From an uncultured archaeon (GTDB lineage: Archaea; Asgardarchaeota; Thorarchaeia; Thorarchaeales; Thorarchaeaceae), in NCBI GenBank assembly GCA_964354495.1, contig CAYHAA010000007.1, positions 1 to 32,000 on the forward strand: DNA of 32,000 nt, given 5' to 3'. Of this stretch, positions 14,246-31,590 are shown piece by piece. Every line of letters starts with the position of its first letter. Positions within the stretch are counted from its first letter, which is position 1. The notes under the pieces were generated by a model that ran no database searches, had not been told where the DNA came from, and was given only the letters and a program-made list of their open reading frames with translations. A program made the position numbers and the translations under genes.

Positions 14246-14362
14246 GCCCGGATAGCCTAGTGGCTATGGCGGCAGCCTGGAACTGATAGCGTTTCTATTA
14301 CATCCCAACAGGCAGCTGCTCTCCCTTGGGAGGCATGAGTTCGAGTCTCATTCCGGGCGCCA
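14246..14362 (+). tRNA. tRNA-Ser(GGA) with a 31-nt intron at 37/38 (14283-14313) and encoded CCA
   Basis: Acceptor GCCCGGA/TCCGGGC, discriminator G, CCA; D stem GCC/GGC; anticodon stem GCAGC/GCTGC with CT-GGA-A; long variable arm CTCCCTTGGGAG; T arm ATGAG-TTCGAGT-CTCAT. Confidence 0.9.
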
Positions 14363-19462: not shown

Positions 19463-20797
19463 TCAGGGATTATGCCATTTGCTGACTAGATGCTCCGGTC
19501 TTCCTGAGTTTGAACGATCAATCCTTGCAGGCGGCCGAGTGAGATGTCTCTGCGCGCTGAGGGGTGGGAGATGAAGCCCCTCTCTGATGGTTCTCTCTAC
19601 CCTCCTCTCGACCTTCATTGCAGTTGGGTCTTTGAAGCCACATCTGAAGCACTTGAAGCCTTTCCCGCTTCCAGCACTCTTCATCCGCTTCAGGCAGTGC
19701 GGACAGTCTGGATTCACTAACAAAACACCAGGCATGAGATTGAGAATCCCAAGACCTTCGATATTGAGCGTCAGACCATGCGTCCTCGACCTTGGCTTGA
19801 CATTTGCATGCACATTAATCTCATCACCAACACGAAGTCCCCTGACAATCTGTCTAAAGCCCCGAGTGGGTTCGTATGCCGCACAGTCGATTCTCTCAAG
19901 ATCATTTCCAAGCTCGAAGAAGACGTGTCCTCCCTCCGTAATCCTTGGAATGCTCTCTACGCGTCCATGGACAACGCAAGCCATGTACGGTCTCAGGTCA
20001 CGTATCCTTATGCTATGTGCAAGATGCTCCGCAGTGGCTTGGTTGCTTCTGAACACCATCCATCTCTCGACAGCCTGCTCGCTCCTCACGAATCTTGCCG
20101 CTTCAATGACATCAGTTGCCGCTTCTCCCCGAATTCCATAGATTACGGGGTCCGGACCGTGAGGTTCAATCAGAATCCTCCCCTCATCAGGGTCGATATT
20201 TGAGAACACCCTGTCTTTCATTCTGTCGACCATCTCGAGCACAGACTCAGGATCAACTCCTCTCTTGAATTCAGACTGGTCCATTGAACGATAGGCAATG
20301 AACTCGTATGTGTGATCGTGCTCAAGGGTGTTTCCAATAGACGCCAGTGCCCCAATCAGTCCCCTCCCGTTGCCCCCTCTGTAGTGGACTATGTCGTATT
20401 TCTCCACAAGCCTCTCTGCTAGTTCTATCGGGACCATGCGCCATAATGCCTGCCGTGACAGTACCTGCACGCTATCAGGAGTCTTTCCAGTGACAATGAC
20501 GGCACCAGGGTTCGTATTGGGATAGGTCTCATCAACATAGTTGTGGACCATCTGTTCAATCTGTTCTAGCAGGTCGCTAATCCTGCTGGTGTCGAAGAGC
20601 AACTGAAGTGCAACGGCACCATTGCCCCGTGTCCTGAACGGAATGCCAGGATTCAATCGAATCAGTCTAGGGTAGTCTATCCACTTGACCGATTGATGCG
20701 TGAGATGTTCAACAAGAAGGCTAGCAAAGTGTGTAGTGCATCCTCCCTTTGGACTGTCAATGTCGTCAAGACCGATGTGAATCTCTTGTAGTTTCAT
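19463..20797 (-). CDS. tiaS: tRNA(Ile2) 2-agmatinylcytidine synthetase
   Basis: GLDDIDS...GCTT, PRLIRLNPGIPFRTRGNG, GPDPVIYGIRG, OB fold AAYEPT, Zn ribbon CPHC...C..CG, RHLTRP. Confidence 0.93.
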   Translation of the reverse strand: MKLQEIHIGLDDIDSPKGGCTTHFASLLVEHLTHQSVKWIDYPRLIRLNPGIPFRTRGNGAVALQLLFDTSRISDLLEQIEQMVHNYVDETYPNTNPGAVIVTGKTPDSVQVLSRQALWRMVPIELAERLVEKYDIVHYRGGNGRGLIGALASIGNTLEHDHTYEFIAYRSMDQSEFKRGVDPESVLEMVDRMKDRVFSNIDPDEGRILIEPHGPDPVIYGIRGEAATDVIEAARFVRSEQAVERWMVFRSNQATAEHLAHSIRIRDLRPYMACVVHGRVESIPRITEGGHVFFELGNDLERIDCAAYEPTRGFRQIVRGLRVGDEINVHANVKPRSRTHGLTLNIEGLGILNLMPGVLLVNPDCPHCLKRMKSAGSGKGFKCFRCGFKDPTAMKVERRVERTIREGLHLPPLSAQRHLTRPPARIDRSNSGRPEHLVSKWHNP

Positions 20798-21066
20798 GCC
20801 TCTCTCTTCCGACAGTAATCACAGATTGTAGACTCGTCCACTTTCGTTCCATGGTCCTCACACACAAGTCTGCCGCAGATATTGCATGCCCGTGAGGCCA
20901 GGTACTCACCACAGATTTGACATCTGGCTTCAACACAGTTCAGACATAGTTGAGTATCGCGGGTCGCACATTGAGGACAGACATATACCCCGCACATCTT
21001 GCAGCAGACAAGATGCATCTCATCCTCACCGCAGATCTCGCATGAGGATGCAGGTTCATGGTGCAT
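20794..21066 (-). CDS. Small Cys/His-rich protein with tandem B-box-like zinc fingers
   Basis: CEIC...CKMC...CPQC...CLNC then CQIC...CNIC...CEDH...CDYC; ATGA overlap with tiaS. Confidence 0.8.
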   Translation of the reverse strand: MHHEPASSCEICGEDEMHLVCCKMCGVYVCPQCATRDTQLCLNCVEARCQICGEYLASRACNICGRLVCEDHGTKVDESTICDYCRKREA

Positions 21067-21104
21067 TTCAGCATTACCTCTTGTTTAGGCCTATGACAAC
21101 ACAG

Positions 21105-21220
21105 AAATCCTTTACCGTTCATTATTAACTGGACAATCTTGGACACCAGAGTGTTGTCCGCCCAGAAAACGGCACTGGGCTCCACTCCGTGAGGTCAGCT
21201 TAGGCGTCGGGTCTGCCTCA
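21105..21220 (-). ncRNA. Putative stand-alone omegaRNA-like structured RNA (homologous to the TnpB 3' end at 28.5 kb)
   Basis: GAGCCCAGTGCCGTTTTCTGGGCGGACAAC matches GAGCCCAGTGCCGTTCCTGGGCGGATAGC at 28489-28516; both are followed by a second hairpin and a TTA.(.)AATGA.CGGTA motif; TTTATATA box upstream. Confidence 0.55.
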
Positions 21221-21241
21221 GAGTTGTATTCCTCAGCACAG

Positions 21242-21249
21242 TATATAAA
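21242..21249 (-). promoter_or_regulatory. TATA box upstream of the omegaRNA-like element / ZnF-tiaS
   Basis: TTTATATA about 25 nt upstream of GAGGCAG at ~21219. Confidence 0.5.
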
Positions 21250-21323
21250 CATCTGTCCGACTATGTCCAAAATTGAAGCAACTGCCGCGTACCCTTTTGG
21301 ATAATACGATTGGTGAATCAAGT

Positions 21324-21854
21324 GTGACCGCACAACCGAGAGTCCTCATCTATCACGCTGACCAGTGTGACCCAAAGAAATGCACTGGGACACGGCTCAT
21401 CAGAATGAAGAGGGCTCAGATTCTCAAGAACATGAATCAAATACCTCTCGGGGGTGTGGTGCTCAACCCGGTTTCTGAGGTCGCCTTTTCAAGGGCAGAT
21501 CGGGATGCTATTCTGCATGCAGGTCTTGTCGCACTTGACTGTTCGTGGAAAAAGGCTGAAGAGATATTCGCCAACTCGCAATCTGGTATCCAGAGAGCAC
21601 TACCTTACCTGCTTGCTGCGAATCCAGTCAACACCTACAAACCAATCAAGCTGTCCACTGCTGAGGCCGTGGCTGCAGCGCTCTATATTGCTGGTTTCAA
21701 GGAAGAGGCTGAAGACATCATGTCTATCTTCAAGTGGGGACCGGCCTTCATAACGCTGAATCACGAGTTCTTGGAAGCATATTCAAAATGCAGCACGAGC
21801 GGGGAGGTTGTAGAAATACAGAGAGAATACATGGAACTACAGAATCGTGAATGA
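21324..21854 (+). CDS. tsr3: 16S rRNA aminocarboxypropyltransferase Tsr3
   Basis: QCDPKKCTG, ALDCSW, RALPYLLAANPVNTY, LSTAEAVAAAL, FKWGPAFITLN; GTG start with a GGTGA RBS. Confidence 0.93.
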   Translation: MTAQPRVLIYHADQCDPKKCTGTRLIRMKRAQILKNMNQIPLGGVVLNPVSEVAFSRADRDAILHAGLVALDCSWKKAEEIFANSQSGIQRALPYLLAANPVNTYKPIKLSTAEAVAAALYIAGFKEEAEDIMSIFKWGPAFITLNHEFLEAYSKCSTSGEVVEIQREYMELQNRE

Positions 21855-23289: not shown

Positions 23290-23335
23290 AATTGAAATAC
23301 TGTGGCTCTGGTCCAGAGGGTGGCCCTCATTCCTT
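23290..23335 (-). repeat. Degenerate rnpB 3'-end fragment (copy A)
   Basis: tgtggctctggtccagagggtggccctcattc aligns with 24061 tgtagctctggtccagagagtaaccccaattc and 28595 tatggccttggtccaaagaataaccccgattc. Confidence 0.7.
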
Positions 23336-24393: not shown

Positions 24394-27300
24394 TTACAGA
24401 GGAAGTTGACGAAGTTCTTGAATGACTTCTGGTATCTGCTTCTTCAGCACTTCGCTGACATTGGAGATATTCAACAATTCTGGGACTATGTCAGCTTCAA
24501 AGGTTTCTCTCACTTCTCGTTCAGCCACCCGTATCTCTGCACCAATGAGAACTTTGGTATCATCATATAGAAGTCCAGTCCGAAACATCTTGGTTTCATA
24601 CTGCTCAGCCTCCCAGAGGACAGCTCGCCGCTCCTTATCAACAGAGAGTGTGACTGTCCATTTCCCAAGTTCCTCAGAGCCATCTTCCATATTCAGGGTA
24701 AGGCTCTTCAGCCATGATGTAATCGTGTTCAGGAAGGAACCTGTGTTCCTGATTGAATAGATACCCATCTCGCCCTCAGAGAGCCCGACTTCAATGGCCT
24801 CGATGATTGCATCAGATGACGCTGCATCTGTGATTTCTATAGTGAATGTGAGAAATGGCTCTCTTCGAGTCCTATCGACAGGAAACACGCCATACATGCA
24901 TTTCTTCTTAGACAGTTCAAGAATGCGTAGCTCACAGATGGGACTCGTTTCAGAGTAACCAAGGTTTCTTAGGCCAGAAAGCAACTTTTCTTCGACATTG
25001 GAGACATTCGTCATATATTCCCGTGGAATGTTCGCAGTAATGATGCCCATTATTCTGGTACACTCCTCCTTTGCACCACGGCCATGTGAAAGTTCAATCA
25101 TGTGTTGACTGCCTTCAAAGAAGAGGCCGGAAACCGTCGACTGCGCACTCCACTTGACATGTGCTTCACTGTCCCAGACGATATCGACCATCCATTTCTG
25201 TTTCCTAATACTCAGATAGGTCCCAGGTTCTAGACTACTCAAAATCAGTCCATTTCTACGAAGAAGCATACGGATGTACCGATCCTCATGGAAGACAATT
25301 CCCTCGTCCTTCTCTGACACTGTAGGTGGAGTCATGTCAAGCATGTACAGTTTCCCAGCATAGAGTCGCTCTGGTGCAAGTAGACCGTTCATTTCCTCCC
25401 CTGTCATGGCTCTACCAAGTTGTTTTCGGACTTCATCAGGGCAATCCGGTGGCAATATCACTCTCCAACAGGCGCCATGTTCTAACTCTTCACCCAGTGC
25501 GACTGGGCAGACTGATTGGTCATGCTCAATGCTCAGAGTAAGCGTTTCTGTTTCGTCAAAGAACTGCACAATTCTCTTCGGAAGTCTCTCTGGGACTATC
25601 CGAGCAGCTCTGAGGGTGATGAATGGTTCAATGAACTCTAGGTCCTTATACTCGATATCATCAAAGATGCTCCATGTCACGAATTTGCCCGAGTCTGTGA
25701 ACATCGGACCTCCTTTAACCATGGGCCATCTGAGGAGGGTGATAAGGTCTGCAGTATATTCAATATTGATGCTCTGAAGGACCTCGTCTTCTTCATCAAC
25801 CAGAACAGCATGACACACACCATCCGTCATCTCAAGACGCATAGTTACTGGCGTGGGTCTTGTGATAGCCTTGAGGTGTCTTTGAAGAGAGTCGGTTACT
25901 CGCTTGTAGAATGATTCTGGGGGTCGTGCTCCCGTTGTAGGATGAGATCTAGGAATCTCAGTGAAGGTCTGACGAATCGCTCGGAGTTGTCCTACGGTTG
26001 AACGTCCCTGACCTATCAATTCGAGGACTCCTGAATTGATAACCTCATTGTCGTTCTGCATCGAGCTCCATGTTTCAATGCCACTCTCGGTCCTTTTACA
26101 CATCATGATAGTCTGTGGGAGTTCTAGTATCTCATCCAGACTCTGTCGTGTCAGCACGTTTGATCTGGTTTCTGCCCAGAGATATCCATCTTTGGTTGGA
26201 GGTCTATCTATGAAACACCCAACAAGCATTCTTCCCTCATTCTCAGGGTCTTGCATCACAATCCACCAGGGCTGGGTTTGATCCTCCTCTGCTGCGAACT
26301 TGATTCCAAACAGCCACTCCTCCAATTCCTCCTCGGATTGTAAGGGGGTGGGGAGTGTCTGTTTTGGTATTGTCTTTAACCTGTTCGGGGAGCGATAGAG
26401 TCGCTGAGAGTTGATCTTACCAGCGGTCACAGTCACAAAGGATGCGCTGTCAAGGGTGGCAGGAATCCTATACCGTAGAAGATCAAGGATATGGGGGGCT
26501 GGACTGGGGGGTTCATGTAAAGTTGCTTGTTGAAAGCTCGGCCCATCTGAGATTCTTCTAAACTCAGTATCCAGCCTTGTGAATAGTTCTTCGAGGGTGT
26601 CCTTCGAGTCCTCAACAAGTGTTGCCTTTGGCCAGAGTCGCACAAGCCATGGGAGCAGAGTCAGTGAGAGGAGTTTCATTCGTATTCGAAGCTCTCTCTC
26701 AGGTATGATATTATCTATCTCTTGATTTCGAACGACTTGTCCAGTTCCCATGTTCCTAAATCTCTTAGACCACCCCCTCAGAAGTGGGACATGGGTCAAC
26801 TCAATTTCCAACTTGTTAGTTGACTGATGGATGATAACTCGAATATCATCATGCATGGGGGAGTCGCCAATGATAGGCATTTTCCACTTTTCGGGGTCGA
26901 TAGTTCCCCTTGGTGCTACAGGCAGGTTCCAGACAATCTCTGTCACCATCTCAGCGAGAGAGGAGTCTTCATAGAACGGGAGGAGAGCTCTACTAGAGTA
27001 CGATACAGCTTTCTCGACAGAGGGGACAGGCGAATCGAACCAGACAATAATGGTGCTCTCATCCTCCGGAAGACTGCTCAGAAGGTGATCCATCACGATC
27101 TTGAGTCTCTCACTATGAGTTGATGGTGTCGCATCCCGAAGAATGTCAGCTCCTGTGACAATGATGATTCTTTCTTTATCAGAGCTCGTATCAATGGCAA
27201 ATGATGGTTCATCTCCATCCTCGTAGAGGAAAGATAGGATATCATCAAGATACCCCCTAATCTCAATCTTTTCGAAGAACTCTCGAATATGATTAGGTTG

Positions 27301-28155
27301 GGCCTTGAACACTTCCTCTTCTGAATAACCCCTAGGTCTTAGACGCAGTCGTGCTTCAGCAAGGCGCCTATCATTGAACTGGTCAGCTAGGTCAATCCAG
27401 AAAAACATTTCACCAGTCTGTGATTCTTTCATATTATAGAGCATCTGAAGTCCGTGATAGTTCCGAGCGTTCCAGGCGGCAGACGGTCCTGCAGATGTCG
27501 GTACAGCACCTGCCAAATAGAGAATGAACTGAGGCCTCATTCCTTGAATGATCTTGAGCGGATTGTAGAGAGGCTGCCATGGAATCTCAATGGCTTCATC
27601 TTTTTTACTTCCAGATGCGTGCTGTTCATGAACAACTAAGGCAATGTGGTTATATTCGTTGCTGGTGGGCGTAACGATTGTGCGTTTAATCTTTCGAGAT
27701 TTCTCCATCACACACTCATAGGCATGTACCAACAGGCTCTCGATGACTCGTCGCACTTTATCTACATCTGAATCAGAGTCGACAATGAGAGTCCCTCTCA
27801 GAACATGTCCGAGTTCGTGGTGCGTGGCATCCTGATAGATGTCTGTCAGAGCCTCAGCATAGGCCATTAACTGCTCCTCTGCCGAGGGAGTAGGAGTTGA
27901 CTTGACAATTGCATTCCACATGTCATCATCAAGTGGATAATCATTCATAGGAAACTCACTCACAACTCTCTGGACAGGACTTCCATCCTGTCGAACCTCG
28001 GATTTCTTGTAGTCAGGTTTAATGTACCAGCTATCTCCTCTACGGGTCTTAATCTCCAACACGAACCTCGGTCTCCAGAGCGCCCGTTTTCCATCCTCTG
28101 TGATGATCCTCTCCAGCAGGACGAGATCGGTTCTGCGAACATCATGGAGTGAAGA
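24394..28155 (-). CDS. Large (~1250 aa) hypothetical protein with an N-terminal RecB-type PD-(D/E)xK nuclease motif; apparently 5'-truncated
   Basis: The frame stays open 31 codons upstream of the tracked GTG (stop at 28156-28158) without a start codon; RRTDLVL...FVLEIKTR...EEQLMAY gives D...ExK...QxxxY. Confidence 0.7.
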   Translation of the reverse strand, partial: SSLHDVRRTDLVLLERIITEDGKRALWRPRFVLEIKTRRGDSWYIKPDYKKSEVRQDGSPVQRVVSEFPMNDYPLDDDMWNAIVKSTPTPSAEEQLMAYAEALTDIYQDATHHELGHVLRGTLIVDSDSDVDKVRRVIESLLVHAYECVMEKSRKIKRTIVTPTSNEYNHIALVVHEQHASGSKKDEAIEIPWQPLYNPLKIIQGMRPQFILYLAGAVPTSAGPSAAWNARNYHGLQMLYNMKESQTGEMFFWIDLADQFNDRRLAEARLRLRPRGYSEEEVFKAQPNHIREFFEKIEIRGYLDDILSFLYEDGDEPSFAIDTSSDKERIIIVTGADILRDATPSTHSERLKIVMDHLLSSLPEDESTIIVWFDSPVPSVEKAVSYSSRALLPFYEDSSLAEMVTEIVWNLPVAPRGTIDPEKWKMPIIGDSPMHDDIRVIIHQSTNKLEIELTHVPLLRGWSKRFRNMGTGQVVRNQEIDNIIPERELRIRMKLLSLTLLPWLVRLWPKATLVEDSKDTLEELFTRLDTEFRRISDGPSFQQATLHEPPSPAPHILDLLRYRIPATLDSASFVTVTAGKINSQRLYRSPNRLKTIPKQTLPTPLQSEEELEEWLFGIKFAAEEDQTQPWWIVMQDPENEGRMLVGCFIDRPPTKDGYLWAETRSNVLTRQSLDEILELPQTIMMCKRTESGIETWSSMQNDNEVINSGVLELIGQGRSTVGQLRAIRQTFTEIPRSHPTTGARPPESFYKRVTDSLQRHLKAITRPTPVTMRLEMTDGVCHAVLVDEEDEVLQSINIEYTADLITLLRWPMVKGGPMFTDSGKFVTWSIFDDIEYKDLEFIEPFITLRAARIVPERLPKRIVQFFDETETLTLSIEHDQSVCPVALGEELEHGACWRVILPPDCPDEVRKQLGRAMTGEEMNGLLAPERLYAGKLYMLDMTPPTVSEKDEGIVFHEDRYIRMLLRRNGLILSSLEPGTYLSIRKQKWMVDIVWDSEAHVKWSAQSTVSGLFFEGSQHMIELSHGRGAKEECTRIMGIITANIPREYMTNVSNVEEKLLSGLRNLGYSETSPICELRILELSKKKCMYGVFPVDRTRREPFLTFTIEITDAASSDAIIEAIEVGLSEGEMGIYSIRNTGSFLNTITSWLKSLTLNMEDGSEELGKWTVTLSVDKERRAVLWEAEQYETKMFRTGLLYDDTKVLIGAEIRVAEREVRETFEADIVPELLNISNVSEVLKKQIPEVIQELRQLPL

Positions 28156-28523
28156 CTATTTACTTTGAAGACCTCCGCTCCTTTCAAGCAAATGGGGGTA
28201 TGAAACGACACAGCTGGAACCTTTCAATCAATCTTTGGGGCAAGATGATTGAGGGTGTTCGATATCGCCGCGAAACTCTAGGTCATAGATATGGTGGTAT
28301 CTGGATGATTAATCCTGCATGGACCTCACAGATCTGCCATGTCTGTGGGCAGCGGGGTTTCCGAGTGGAGGACGATGTTTCTACGAATGAGAAGAAGGGA
28401 GGCGAATACTTCCATTGCCCAAAGTGTAGAGCGCATTTTCATGCTGATGTAAATGCAGCACGAAACATTATGCAATTTCAACCACCTGAGCCCAGTGCCG
28501 TTCCTGGGCGGATAGCTTTGTAG
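28131..28523 (+). pseudogene. tnpB: 5'-truncated TnpB (IS200/IS605 or IS607 family)
   Basis: RuvC-II IYFEDL, PAWTSQICHVCG...FHCPKC zinc ribbon, RuvC-III HADVNAARNI; RuvC-I and the N-terminal lobe are absent. Confidence 0.88.
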
Positions 28524-28547
28524 CTAGTCAACTTACAATGACCGGTA
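28489..28547 (+). ncRNA. TnpB right end / omegaRNA scaffold region
   Basis: Hairpin GCCCAG-TGCCGTTC-CTGGGC overlapping the tnpB 3' end, a second hairpin, then TTACAATGACCGGTA; same layout as 21113-21183. Confidence 0.55.
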
Positions 28548-28597
28548 GGAAGCTTAGTTCGATACCGCTCTCAATAAGAAAATCATGGTAGAAATAT

Positions 28598-28947
28598 GGC
28601 CTTGGTCCAAAGAATAACCCCGATTCTGTTCCACCTCATCTCGTTACCGAAATGAAGTCTTGCAACATCGAACTAACGCTCTCTACCCTACATCTTGGAC
28701 CGACGCCTCAGCGATGTATTCTTGAGATTGCTCAACAGTGATGGGCCGTTTCAGCCTGTCCGAACGAGTCCTCAACAGATTCAAGTCCGTATCATTGTCA
28801 CATCCCGTTCGGGGGTGTCGTTTCTGTTCCCAGAGCGAGGCTCTCGCCTCCCTGCTTTCACAGGACTGTTGTCGGTATGAGTCAGGAGTTTCCTCAGCTC
28901 TCATCCCGGGGGATAAGTACCGTCAGTTGCACTTCTGCTCCAAGGCC
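28598..28947 (-). ncRNA. rnpB: RNase P RNA, complete copy (copy 1)
   Basis: P1 GGCCTTGG/CCAAGGCC; CR-I GAGGAAACTCCTGA (28882-28895); ACAGAAAC; CTGAAACGG; GAGCAA; TTAGTTCGATG; CR-V GAACAGAATCGGGGTTA (28615-28632); P4 AAC(U)CCUGA pairs with UCGGGGUU; 350 nt. Confidence 0.9.
28742..28942. repeat. 201-bp perfect direct repeat, copy 1 (partner 31374-31574)
   Basis: Base-by-base identity by eye from tgggccgtttc to cttctgctcca. Confidence 0.95.
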
Positions 28948-31232: not shown

Positions 31233-31312
31233 AACCTATTCTCCCATTTCGTGCAGAAGAATCAAACACATAGTTCTACTAAGTCATCGTCACATCGCAA
31301 TAAGAATCCCTT

Positions 31313-31590
31313 CCTACCCTACACCTCAGGTCGACACGTCAACAGTGTATTCTTGGAATTGCTCAACCAGTGTTGGGCCGTTTCAGCCTGTCCGAACGAG
31401 TCCTCAACAGATTCAAGTCCGTATCATTGTCACATCCCGTTCGGGGGTGTCGTTTCTGTTCCCAGAGCGAGGCTCTCGCCTCCCTGCTTTCACAGGACTG
31501 TTGTCGGTATGAGTCAGGAGTTTCCTCAGCTCTCATCCCGGGGGATAAGTACCGTCAGTTGCACTTCTGCTCCAGAGCTACATCTCTCTT
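31313..31590 (-). pseudogene. rnpB: RNase P RNA, 5'-intact and 3'-truncated copy (copy 2)
   Basis: Own P1 5' strand, 201-nt core identical to copy 1, then ~60 nt diverged; no CR-V or P4 3' strand before the NERD gene. Confidence 0.8.
31374..31574. repeat. 201-bp perfect direct repeat, copy 2 (partner 28742-28942)
   Basis: Identical to 28742-28942; offset 2632 bp. Confidence 0.95.

What the first reader, a model, noticed from the sequence alone, without database searches (positions are those of the whole stretch)
21105..21249. Orphan omegaRNA-like element with its own TATA box, upstream of the ZnF-tiaS operon
Seen: the minus-strand intergenic sequence shares ~27/30 nt with the hairpin at the tnpB 3' end 7 kb away. 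It then has a second hairpin of different sequence (GGACAA...TTGTCC vs GATAGC...GCTAGTC) and a matching end motif (TTAATAATGAACGGTA vs TTACAATGACCGGTA). There is no tnpB coding sequence upstream; instead there is a new 5' stem (GAGG-CAG/CTG-A-CCTC) and TTTATATA ~25 nt upstream. Established: TnpB omegaRNAs derive from the element's right end, with the guide taken from the flank. Inference: this is a stand-alone guide RNA (guide about TAAAGGATTTCTGTGTTGTC) for a TnpB or TnpB-derived regulator acting in trans, or a domesticated leader for tiaS.
Basis: partly seen in the sequence, partly recalled or inferred. Interest (0 to 1): 0.66.

Follow-up and report, generated by a model that had tools for sequence, protein, structure and literature searches.

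The report
Guide-RNA-only IS607 mini-transposon insertion
The "orphan guide RNA" is real, but it is one of about two dozen copies of a 177-base protein-less jumping element that carries its own promoter and a TnpB guide-RNA gene. It landed recently between tsr3 and the tiaS operon, so it is a mobile element of a known kind and not a domesticated regulator.

Summary

- **What it is.** Window 21115-21293 (minus strand) is a complete, non-autonomous IS607-family mini-element. It consists of a 41-nt left end with two TTGGACA repeats, a BRE/TATA box, a variable spacer of about 22 nt, and a ~105-nt omegaRNA scaffold. The scaffold ends in ACGG at the right end, and the guide is read from the flank.
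- **Copy number.** A covariance model finds 30 scaffold copies in this genome. About 24 are stand-alone and 6 sit at tnpB 3' ends.
- **Autonomous relatives.** The same genome holds an autonomous relative on contig C24, with a serine-recombinase tnpA and a tnpB. It also holds three full-length TnpBs with the RuvC motifs D-E-D intact.
- **Recent insertion.** Seven relatives of the same genus, including one whose flanks are 92-94% identical, have a clean empty site at a GGG. This insertion is therefore recent and is not conserved at the locus.
- **Selection pattern.** Promoter and RNA are conserved (0.82 and 0.79 pairwise identity) while the spacer is not (0.51). Twelve of 24 base pairs show compensatory changes across 10 genera.
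- **Guides.** No guide has a second genomic target.

Stand-alone, mobilised omegaRNAs are already described in the literature. The IS607 type, the Asgard host and the built-in archaeal promoter are new details. The scan had already met this family on other DNA (e1-5383731).

The parts
21254..21294 (-). Left end. The flanking G is at 21294 and the GG core at 21292-21293. Two subterminal repeats follow: TTGGACA (21264-21270) and TCGGACA (21254-21260).
   Evidence: Conserved in all full-length copies, with 0.76 pairwise identity against 0.29 in the flank. Homologous to the left ends of the tnpA-bearing IS607-like elements on C24 and C22.
21241..21253 (-). BRE/TATA promoter of the RNA gene. TTTATATA lies at 21242-21249.
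   Evidence: This is the most conserved segment (0.82 identity). It sits at a fixed distance of about 22 nt from the RNA start in copies from 10 genera, even though the linker between left end and TATA varies by 0-50 nt.
21221..21240 (-). Promoter-to-start spacer, not conserved in sequence.
   Evidence: Pairwise identity is only 0.51, between two segments at about 0.8.
21115..21220 (-). omegaRNA scaffold of about 105 nt.
- P1: 21214-21220 with 21190-21196.
- P2: 21184-21189 with 21147-21152.
- P3: 21175-21180 with 21160-21165.
- Crossing helix: GGACA 21155-21159 with TGTCC 21131-21135.
- Possible guide-adjacent pseudoknot: CCGUU 21168-21172 with AACGG 21115-21119.
- It ends in the GG core at 21115-21116.
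   Evidence: The covariance model R1 scores it at 115.9 bits. On 25 copies, 93.6% of cells are paired and 12 of 24 pairs show compensatory changes, against 35-48% paired in the slid controls. The loop-to-3'-end helix is 96.7% paired with one compensatory change. No Rfam family matches.
21095..21114 (-). Predicted 20-nt guide. This is host flank, not part of the element.
   Evidence: Homology among all copies stops after the terminal GG. The same 20 nt follow GGG in the empty sites of relatives. There is no second genomic match beyond chance.
21324..21854 (+). tsr3 (ribosome-biogenesis aminocarboxypropyl transferase), divergent neighbour. Its start codon is 30 nt from the left end.
   Evidence: Pfam Ribo_biogen_C, E = 1.5e-45. 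The start was placed from conservation in relatives.
19463..21066 (-). Zinc-finger ORF (20794-21066) and tiaS (19463-20797), co-oriented downstream of the element. The ATG lies 48 nt after the right end.
   Evidence: Pfam TiaS domains. ORF list.
28149..28547 (+). Truncated tnpB (C-terminal 124 aa) with its own scaffold and right end.
   Evidence: PF07282, E = 3e-14. It is 76% identical to the C-terminus of the intact C24 TnpB. R1 scores it at 36.8 bits.

Best explanation
The feature is a complete, recently inserted, non-autonomous IS607-family mini-transposon. The net insertion is 177 bp, and its only gene is a promoter-driven TnpB guide RNA (omegaRNA).

**Shown**
- It has IS607-type ends: GG at both termini, insertion at a GGG target, no target duplication, and inverted subterminal TTGGACA repeats.
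- Its left end is homologous to that of resident elements that encode a MerR-HTH serine-recombinase TnpA, one of which also encodes TnpB.
- Its 3' two thirds are homologous to the RNA scaffold at tnpB 3' ends.
- The site is empty in relatives.
- Promoter and RNA structure are conserved across 10 genera.

**Inferred**
- Transcription starts about 23 nt after the TATA box, near 21219. It runs through the scaffold into the flank and gives a guide that starts at 21114.
- A TnpB made by a full-length relative (C24, C1 or C3 type) binds this RNA in trans.
- If the serine recombinase excises the mini-element, the restored site (AGGG followed by the 20-nt target) is cut and repaired from a copy that still holds the element.
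- The occupied site is spared because the right end reads ACGG instead of NGGG. This is the same discrimination at position -3 that was shown experimentally for a Clostridium IS607 element.

**Local side effect (inferred)**
- The insertion split the conserved ~100-bp divergent promoter region.
- Read-through from the element's promoter probably now contributes to, or drives, transcription of the zinc-finger/tiaS operon.
For: - **Copy family with sharp ends.**
- **Empty sites.** Seven same-genus genomes have them, including G012 with flanks 92-94% identical.
- **Polymorphic copies.** Between G000 and G012 there are two shared insertions and two further clean filled/empty pairs. All fit the rule flank-G, GG, element, GG, flank.
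- **Autonomous element on C24.** TnpA has a MerR HTH plus a Resolvase domain. TnpB is 504 aa, and its D, E and D align to the Cas12f catalytic residues.
- **Three full-length TnpBs.** All keep the DRG, FED/FEN and HAD motifs.
- **No Y1 TnpA in the genome.**
- **Segment conservation.** Left end 0.76, TATA 0.82, spacer 0.51, RNA 0.79, flanks 0.27-0.29.
- **Covariation.**
- **Same modular anatomy in 10 genera.**
- **Literature.** IS607 hallmarks (PMC6188088). TAM TGGG against right end UCGG, with TnpB-dependent retention of IS607 (bioRxiv 10.1101/2023.11.20.567912). Stand-alone mobilised omegaRNAs that work in trans (PMC10691335). PATEs carrying omegaRNAs (bioRxiv 10.1101/2023.03.14.532601). A guide-adjacent pseudoknot as an omegaRNA hallmark (PMC10097598).
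Against: - No expression data exist. Transcription, the start site and the 3' end of the RNA are inferred from motifs only.
- The stand-alone scaffold lacks the upstream part of the RNA that lies inside tnpB in full-length elements. It has a short hairpin (P1) instead, so binding by the resident TnpBs is untested.
- The TAM (NGGG, mostly AGGG here) is inferred from flanks, not measured.
- Two related genomes (G041, G094) hold at least 27 copies each but no close homologue of the C24-type TnpB at E <= 1e-60. Copies can therefore persist without an obvious partner, unless that partner is divergent or unassembled.
- The guide-adjacent pseudoknot is nearly invariant, so covariation can hardly test it.
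Confidence: 0.85

Rival explanations
1. Domesticated cis-regulatory leader or exapted promoter: the element is kept because it now controls the zinc-finger/tiaS operon.
For: It is co-oriented with the operon and ends 48 nt before its ATG. The insertion split the conserved divergent promoter region, so the element's promoter may in fact now drive these genes.
Against: It is absent from the locus in all seven relatives examined, including one with flanks 92-94% identical. The same element sits at about 24 unrelated sites. Orientation relative to the downstream gene shows no bias, 12 same against 9 opposite.
Confidence: 0.05
2. Guide RNA for a TnpB-derived, nuclease-dead transcription factor (TldR-like) that acts in trans on a distant target.
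For: It is a stand-alone guide gene with its own promoter. The guide coincides with a 20-nt block that is invariant across the genus.
Against: TnpBs carrying the cognate scaffold keep the D-E-D motifs. The guide is simply the insertion flank, and it has no second match within 3 mismatches beyond chance. The element is mobile and polymorphic.
Confidence: 0.03
3. Inert relic: a decaying internal-deletion remnant of a tnpB element with no activity of its own.
For: It has no coding capacity. Truncated tnpB copies exist in the genome, for example at 28149-28547, on C17 and on C46.
Against: Both ends, the TATA box and all helices are intact. The insertion is younger than the split from a relative with flanks 92-94% identical. 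The TATA box lies at a different place from that of the tnpA-bearing left end, so it is not a simple deletion product. The conservation pattern and compensatory changes across 10 genera indicate selection.
Confidence: 0.07

Closest known systems
Stand-alone, mobilised omegaRNAs of OMEGA systems (Altae-Tran et al. 2021, as summarised in PMC10691335) and PATE-like protein-less IS200/IS605 elements that carry omegaRNAs (Meers et al. 2023, bioRxiv 10.1101/2023.03.14.532601)
   Same: Protein-less transposon derivatives that keep both ends and a guide-RNA scaffold. They occur in the same genomes as full elements and depend on nuclease and transposase supplied in trans.
   Different: This element is of the IS607 (serine-recombinase) type, not the Y1-transposase type: no Y1 TnpA is found in the genome. 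The host is an Asgard archaeon. The element carries a dedicated archaeal BRE/TATA promoter. The part of the scaffold that overlaps tnpB in full elements is replaced by a short hairpin.
IS607-family transposons with TnpB/omegaRNA, e.g. the Clostridium botulinum IStron (bioRxiv 10.1101/2023.11.20.567912) and IS607/IS1535 (PMC6188088)
   Same: GG termini, a (G)GG target, no target duplication and no terminal inverted repeats. Subterminal short repeats are present. TnpA has an N-terminal MerR-type HTH plus a serine-recombinase domain. The TAM reads NGGG while the right end reads NCGG, so self and non-self differ at position -3.
   Different: The window's copy has neither tnpA nor tnpB, nor an intron. 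Its guide RNA is transcribed from its own promoter, not processed from the tnpB transcript.
TldR / TnpB-derived RNA-guided transcription factors (bioRxiv 10.1101/2023.11.30.569447)
   Same: A guide RNA derived from an omegaRNA scaffold.
   Different: There is no nuclease-dead partner, no conserved distant target and no conservation at the locus. The element is mobile.
Classical MITEs of DDE transposons
   Same: Short, multi-copy and non-coding, mobilised in trans, mostly intergenic.
   Different: There are no terminal inverted repeats at the tips and no target-site duplication. The ends are of the IS607 type, and the element encodes a functional-looking RNA gene.

Membership tests
IS607-family transposon (non-autonomous derivative) | Termini end in GG, insertion at a (G)GG target, no target-site duplication | tested here: met
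   Three filled/empty pairs (the window against G012, G017 and G006; G012:C81 against G000:C17; G012:C44 against G000:C1) all read flank-G, GG, element, GG, flank, with a single GGG in the empty site. The rule comes from PMC6188088.
IS607-family transposon (non-autonomous derivative) | No terminal inverted repeats, but short subterminal repeats and an imperfect inverted repeat near the ends | tested here: met
   Two TTGGACA-type repeats lie at 21254-21270 and two TGTCCA(A/G)-type repeats at 21129-21145, inverted relative to each other. The tips share nothing beyond GG(T).
IS607-family transposon (non-autonomous derivative) | Ends shared with an autonomous element that encodes a serine-recombinase TnpA with an N-terminal MerR-type HTH | tested here: met
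   The C24 and C22 left ends align with the mini-element's left end. The TnpA proteins hit Resolvase, MerR and HTH_17. The C24 right end carries the same scaffold.
IS607-family transposon (non-autonomous derivative) | Actual mobilisation by TnpA in trans | not testable with these tools
   Only indirect evidence exists: insertions polymorphic between closely related genomes.
TnpB omegaRNA (OMEGA guide RNA) | Scaffold homologous to the RNA encoded at the 3' end of tnpB, ending at the right-end boundary with the guide taken from the flank | tested here: met
   R1, built from stand-alone copies only, also finds the six tnpB-linked copies at 37-71 bits. Homology stops at the terminal GG.
TnpB omegaRNA (OMEGA guide RNA) | Conserved secondary structure, including a pseudoknot formed by the nucleotides next to the guide | tested here: inconclusive
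   Helices P1-P3 and a crossing helix are well supported. The guide-adjacent pairing of AACGG with the P3 loop is 96.7% paired, but it is almost invariant, with one compensatory change. The hallmark comes from PMC10097598.
TnpB omegaRNA (OMEGA guide RNA) | Transcribed, bound by TnpB, and guides TAM-dependent DNA cleavage | not testable with these tools
   The supporting evidence is a conserved BRE/TATA box at fixed spacing and TnpBs with intact catalytic motifs in the genome. There are no RNA or biochemical data.
TldR-type domesticated guide/regulator | Nuclease-dead TnpB partner, guide matching a conserved distant target, and vertical conservation at the locus | tested here: not met
   The catalytic motifs are intact. 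There is no second guide match. The site is empty in seven relatives.
PATE (IS200/IS605 palindrome-associated element) | Ends recognised by a Y1 (HUH) TnpA | tested here: not met
   No PF01797 match in a genome that is 97.7% complete. The ends are of the IS607 type.

The most novel reading that the evidence does not exclude
These promoter-bearing, guide-only IS607 minis may form a long-lived population of autonomous guide-RNA genes across one Thorarchaeota family. They outnumber the cognate full-length nuclease genes about eight to one in this genome. On this reading they are "guide parasites", selected to borrow TnpB and the serine recombinase in trans. Their compact ~105-nt scaffold, free of any ORF, would be a naturally minimised omegaRNA. 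At this locus the element's promoter would have taken over transcription of the essential tiaS operon after splitting its native promoter.
Probability: 0.25. Interest if true: 0.5.

Novelty: new member of a known kind. Interest (0 to 1): 0.35.

Why it matters
**For annotation.** The finding removes a false lead. There is no domesticated guide RNA or riboswitch-like leader at tiaS. It also explains a whole class of "structured intergenic RNAs" that the scan keeps flagging in Thorarchaeota genomes.

**For TnpB biology.** It gives a well-defined natural example of an IS607-type guide-only element in Asgard archaea. The example comes with exact boundaries, a predicted TAM (NGGG against ACGG at the right end), a dedicated promoter and a short scaffold that does not overlap any ORF. 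All of these could be tested directly with the three resident TnpBs. The general principle, that stand-alone mobilised omegaRNAs act in trans, is already published, so the gain is incremental.

Tried and rejected
- **Rfam.** Gathering thresholds on the whole window and permissive E-values on 21050-21350 gave no family for the scaffold.
- **Distant guide targets.** The first 18 nt of the flank of every copy were searched against the genome at up to 3 mismatches. Only chance-level hits appeared.
- **Y1 transposase.** None was found, so a PATE/IS200-IS605 reading was dropped.
- **Single-sequence folding.** The fold of the window copy is not better than shuffles (z = -0.82). The structural case rests on covariation, not on energy.
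- **"Mobile promoter" idea.** Orientation relative to the downstream gene is 12 same against 9 opposite, so there is no bias.
- **Co-occurrence of minis and cognate TnpB.** The comparison covered genomes of the taxonomic family. None of the 8 genomes without the scaffold has the TnpB. Ten of 15 with the scaffold do. The genomes are kin and the test is partly circular, so it is reported as description only.
- **The 73-aa ORF at 21112-21333.** It overlaps the element, has no family hit, is not conserved, and is taken as spurious.
- **One G012 copy (C16).** It gave no clean empty site, because it lies within a larger 359-nt indel.

Full report
**Observation**

The minus strand of 21080-21300 was read and aligned to 28380-28600. 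The two share the hairpin GCCCAG...CTGGGC with its flanks: 24/26 by blastn, about 27/30 by eye. Each is followed by a second hairpin of different sequence and by matching end motifs. The 28-kb copy lies at the 3' end of a 124-aa ORF that hits the TnpB/Cas12f TNB domain. That ORF is only the C-terminal quarter of a TnpB, 76% identical to an intact one elsewhere.

No tnpB lies upstream of the finding. The upstream gene is tsr3 on the other strand, and the downstream genes are a zinc-finger ORF and tiaS.

**A repeat family, not an orphan**

blastn of the intergenic region against the window's own genome gives 27 copies. The genome has 3.30 Mb in 51 contigs and is 97.7% complete. A covariance model built from 19 stand-alone copies gives 30 copies.

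- Six copies lie at tnpB 3' ends. Three of these tnpB genes are full length (C24, C1, C3) and three are truncated or broken (C17, C46, and this window at 28547).
- About 24 copies stand alone. Three of them are degenerate.
- A few more are cut by contig ends.

All copies end sharply after ...AACGG and then diverge completely. Full-length stand-alone copies also begin sharply, at GGGT.

**Anatomy**

Coordinates are on the minus strand.

- **Left end, 21254-21294.** It holds two TTGGACA-type heptamers 10 bp apart.
- **BRE/TATA, 21241-21253.**
- **Spacer, 21221-21240.**
- **RNA scaffold, 21115-21220.**
- **Host flank**, which follows the scaffold.

Among 12 copies the mean pairwise identity by segment is as follows.

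| Segment | Identity |
|---|---|
| 5' flank | 0.29 |
| Left end | 0.76 |
| TATA | 0.82 |
| Spacer | 0.51 |
| RNA | 0.79 |
| 3' flank | 0.27 |

A conserved TATA box, a free spacer of fixed length and then a conserved RNA is the signature of a promoter and its transcript. The right end contains two TGTCCA(A/G)-type heptamers, the inverted image of the left-end repeats.

**It is IS607-type**

- The genome has no Y1 transposase.
- It has two 200-aa serine recombinases with an N-terminal MerR-type HTH.
- On C24 one of them is followed by an unknown antisense ORF and a 504-aa tnpB whose 3' end carries this scaffold.
- The left ends of the C24 and C22 elements align with the mini-element's left end: the same GGGT...ACAGCT...(T/G)GACAAAGTTGGACA. 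Their TATA box, however, sits inside the left end and not behind it. The mini-element is therefore not a plain deletion product.
- The defining features of IS607 are GG termini, a (G)GG target, no duplication, no terminal inverted repeats and subterminal short repeats (PMC6188088). All are met.

**Recent insertion**

A 1.5-kb query across the locus was searched in 40 relatives. In G012 (flanks 94% and 92% identical), G017 and G006 the two flanks abut. An alignment that also includes G023, G024, G002 and G007 shows one uninterrupted site...AAAAGGG followed directly by the 20 nt that form the predicted guide. The net insertion is 177 bp.

Comparing G012 copies with this genome gives two shared insertions and two more clean filled/empty pairs. 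All pairs obey the same rule: flank-G, GG, element, GG, flank. The family is therefore mobile on the time scale of species within the genus. The window's copy is specific to this lineage.

**RNA structure**

RNAalifold on 19 copies predicts P1, P2 and P3. A further helix, GGACA with the distal TGTCC, crosses P2. It is supported by a G-C to U-A switch in the subfamilies that read GUACA...UGUAC.

- On the 19 copies, 94% of cells pair and 7 pairs show compensatory changes. Slid controls give 32-45% paired.
- On 25 copies drawn from 10 genera, 93.6% of cells pair and 12 of 24 pairs are compensatory. P1 includes a complete switch in one genus. Slid controls give 35-48%. One caveat applies: that alignment was fitted to the model for P1-P3.
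- The P3 loop CCGUU can pair with the terminal AACGG just before the guide. This helix is 96.7% paired, nearly invariant, with one compensatory change. A guide-adjacent pseudoknot is the hallmark of omegaRNA and Cas12 guides (PMC10097598), so this fits, but covariation cannot prove it.
- tnpB-linked copies share P3, the crossing helix and the 3' tail. They have a coding-region hairpin where the minis have P1.

**Partners and targets**

The C24, C1 and C3 TnpBs keep DRG, FED/FEN and HAD. In the C24 protein these align with the catalytic D, E and D of Cas12f.

The 18-nt guides of all copies have no second match beyond what is expected at 3 mismatches. The guides therefore point only at their own insertion sites, as in transposon homing.

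The base before the GG core is G in all three empty sites and in nearly all copies. The base before that is A in about 18 of 21 copies here and varies in other genera. The right end reads ACGG. This is the same arrangement that was shown experimentally for a Clostridium IS607 element: TAM TGGG, right end UCGG, discrimination at -3.

**Distribution**

The scaffold is found in 15 of 23 other genomes of the same taxonomic family, across 10 genera, and often in 20 or more copies. It was found in none of the 117 sampled genomes from 26 other families of the phylum. Top hits from all those genera are stand-alone, with left end, TATA box and RNA in the same order.

Close homologues of the C24 TnpB occur in 10 of the 15 scaffold-positive genomes covered by both searches, and in none of the 8 scaffold-negative ones. 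This comparison is descriptive only.

**Local consequences (inference)**

- The element sits 30 nt from the tsr3 start and 48 nt from the zinc-finger ATG. It lies in the middle of a ~100-bp divergent control region.
- The 20-nt core of that region is invariant in eight genomes.
- There is no oligo-T after the guide. Transcripts from the element's promoter probably continue into the zinc-finger/tiaS operon.
- Across copies, orientation relative to the downstream gene shows no bias, 12 against 9. Any such read-through is a side effect, not the element's purpose.

**Comparison with the known**

Stand-alone, mobilised omegaRNAs that work in trans are described (PMC10691335 citing Altae-Tran 2021). 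So are PATE-like elements carrying omegaRNAs. My searches found no description of IS607-type minis or of this Asgard family. Rfam has no model for the scaffold.

The scan itself had already filed a sister copy as an IS607-type MITE (e1-5383731). First readers had also flagged several other copies as "structured RNAs". The taxon name Thorarchaeota comes from those notes and was not checked here.

**Verdict**

This is a real, intact and recently inserted mobile element of a known kind. It is a new member of that kind, with a tidy dedicated promoter, and of moderate interest.

Noticed in passing
window 21094-21113 (minus strand): The 20 nt directly after the insertion point, which equal the predicted guide, are invariant or nearly so in eight genomes of the genus. 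The neighbouring coding DNA is only 67-94% identical. This is probably the core of the shared tsr3/zinc-finger divergent promoter, which the element has split.
   Followed up: partly
window 28603-28942 and 31249-31574 (minus strand): Two archaeal RNase P RNA hits (157.5 and 110 bits) share a 207-nt identical stretch. They flank a 743-aa ORF with a weak GapS1-like match. Shorter fragments of the RNase P 3' end lie at 23294 and 24054. This is already covered by earlier scan finding e1-5383669.
   Followed up: no
window 14246-14359 (+): A tRNA gene found by Rfam (46.7 bits, 114 nt) but missed by ARAGORN. It presumably contains an intron.
   Followed up: no
window 24394-28062 (minus strand): A 1222-aa ORF with no Pfam or NCBIfam match starts 87 nt from the truncated tnpB at 28149. 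It occupies the place where the missing three quarters of that tnpB would lie.
   Followed up: no
L038 (G000:C24:10400-14100), ORF 951-1913 minus: The autonomous IS607-like element carries an unknown 320-aa ORF, antisense, between tnpA and tnpB. It has no Pfam or NCBIfam hit.
   Followed up: partly
G000:C8:82340-87272: Four scaffold copies lie within 5 kb, in mixed orientation. This is a local cluster of mini-elements.
   Followed up: no
genomes G041 and G094 (same taxonomic family): Each has at least 27 covariance-model hits but no homologue of the C24-type TnpB at E <= 1e-60. The minis may persist without an obvious partner, or the partner may be divergent or unassembled.
   Followed up: partly
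L042 (G012:C16:4179-5559): This copy lies inside a 359-nt indel relative to G000:C3:186042, with about 88 nt of extra DNA on each side. It may be nested in another small insertion.
   Followed up: partly
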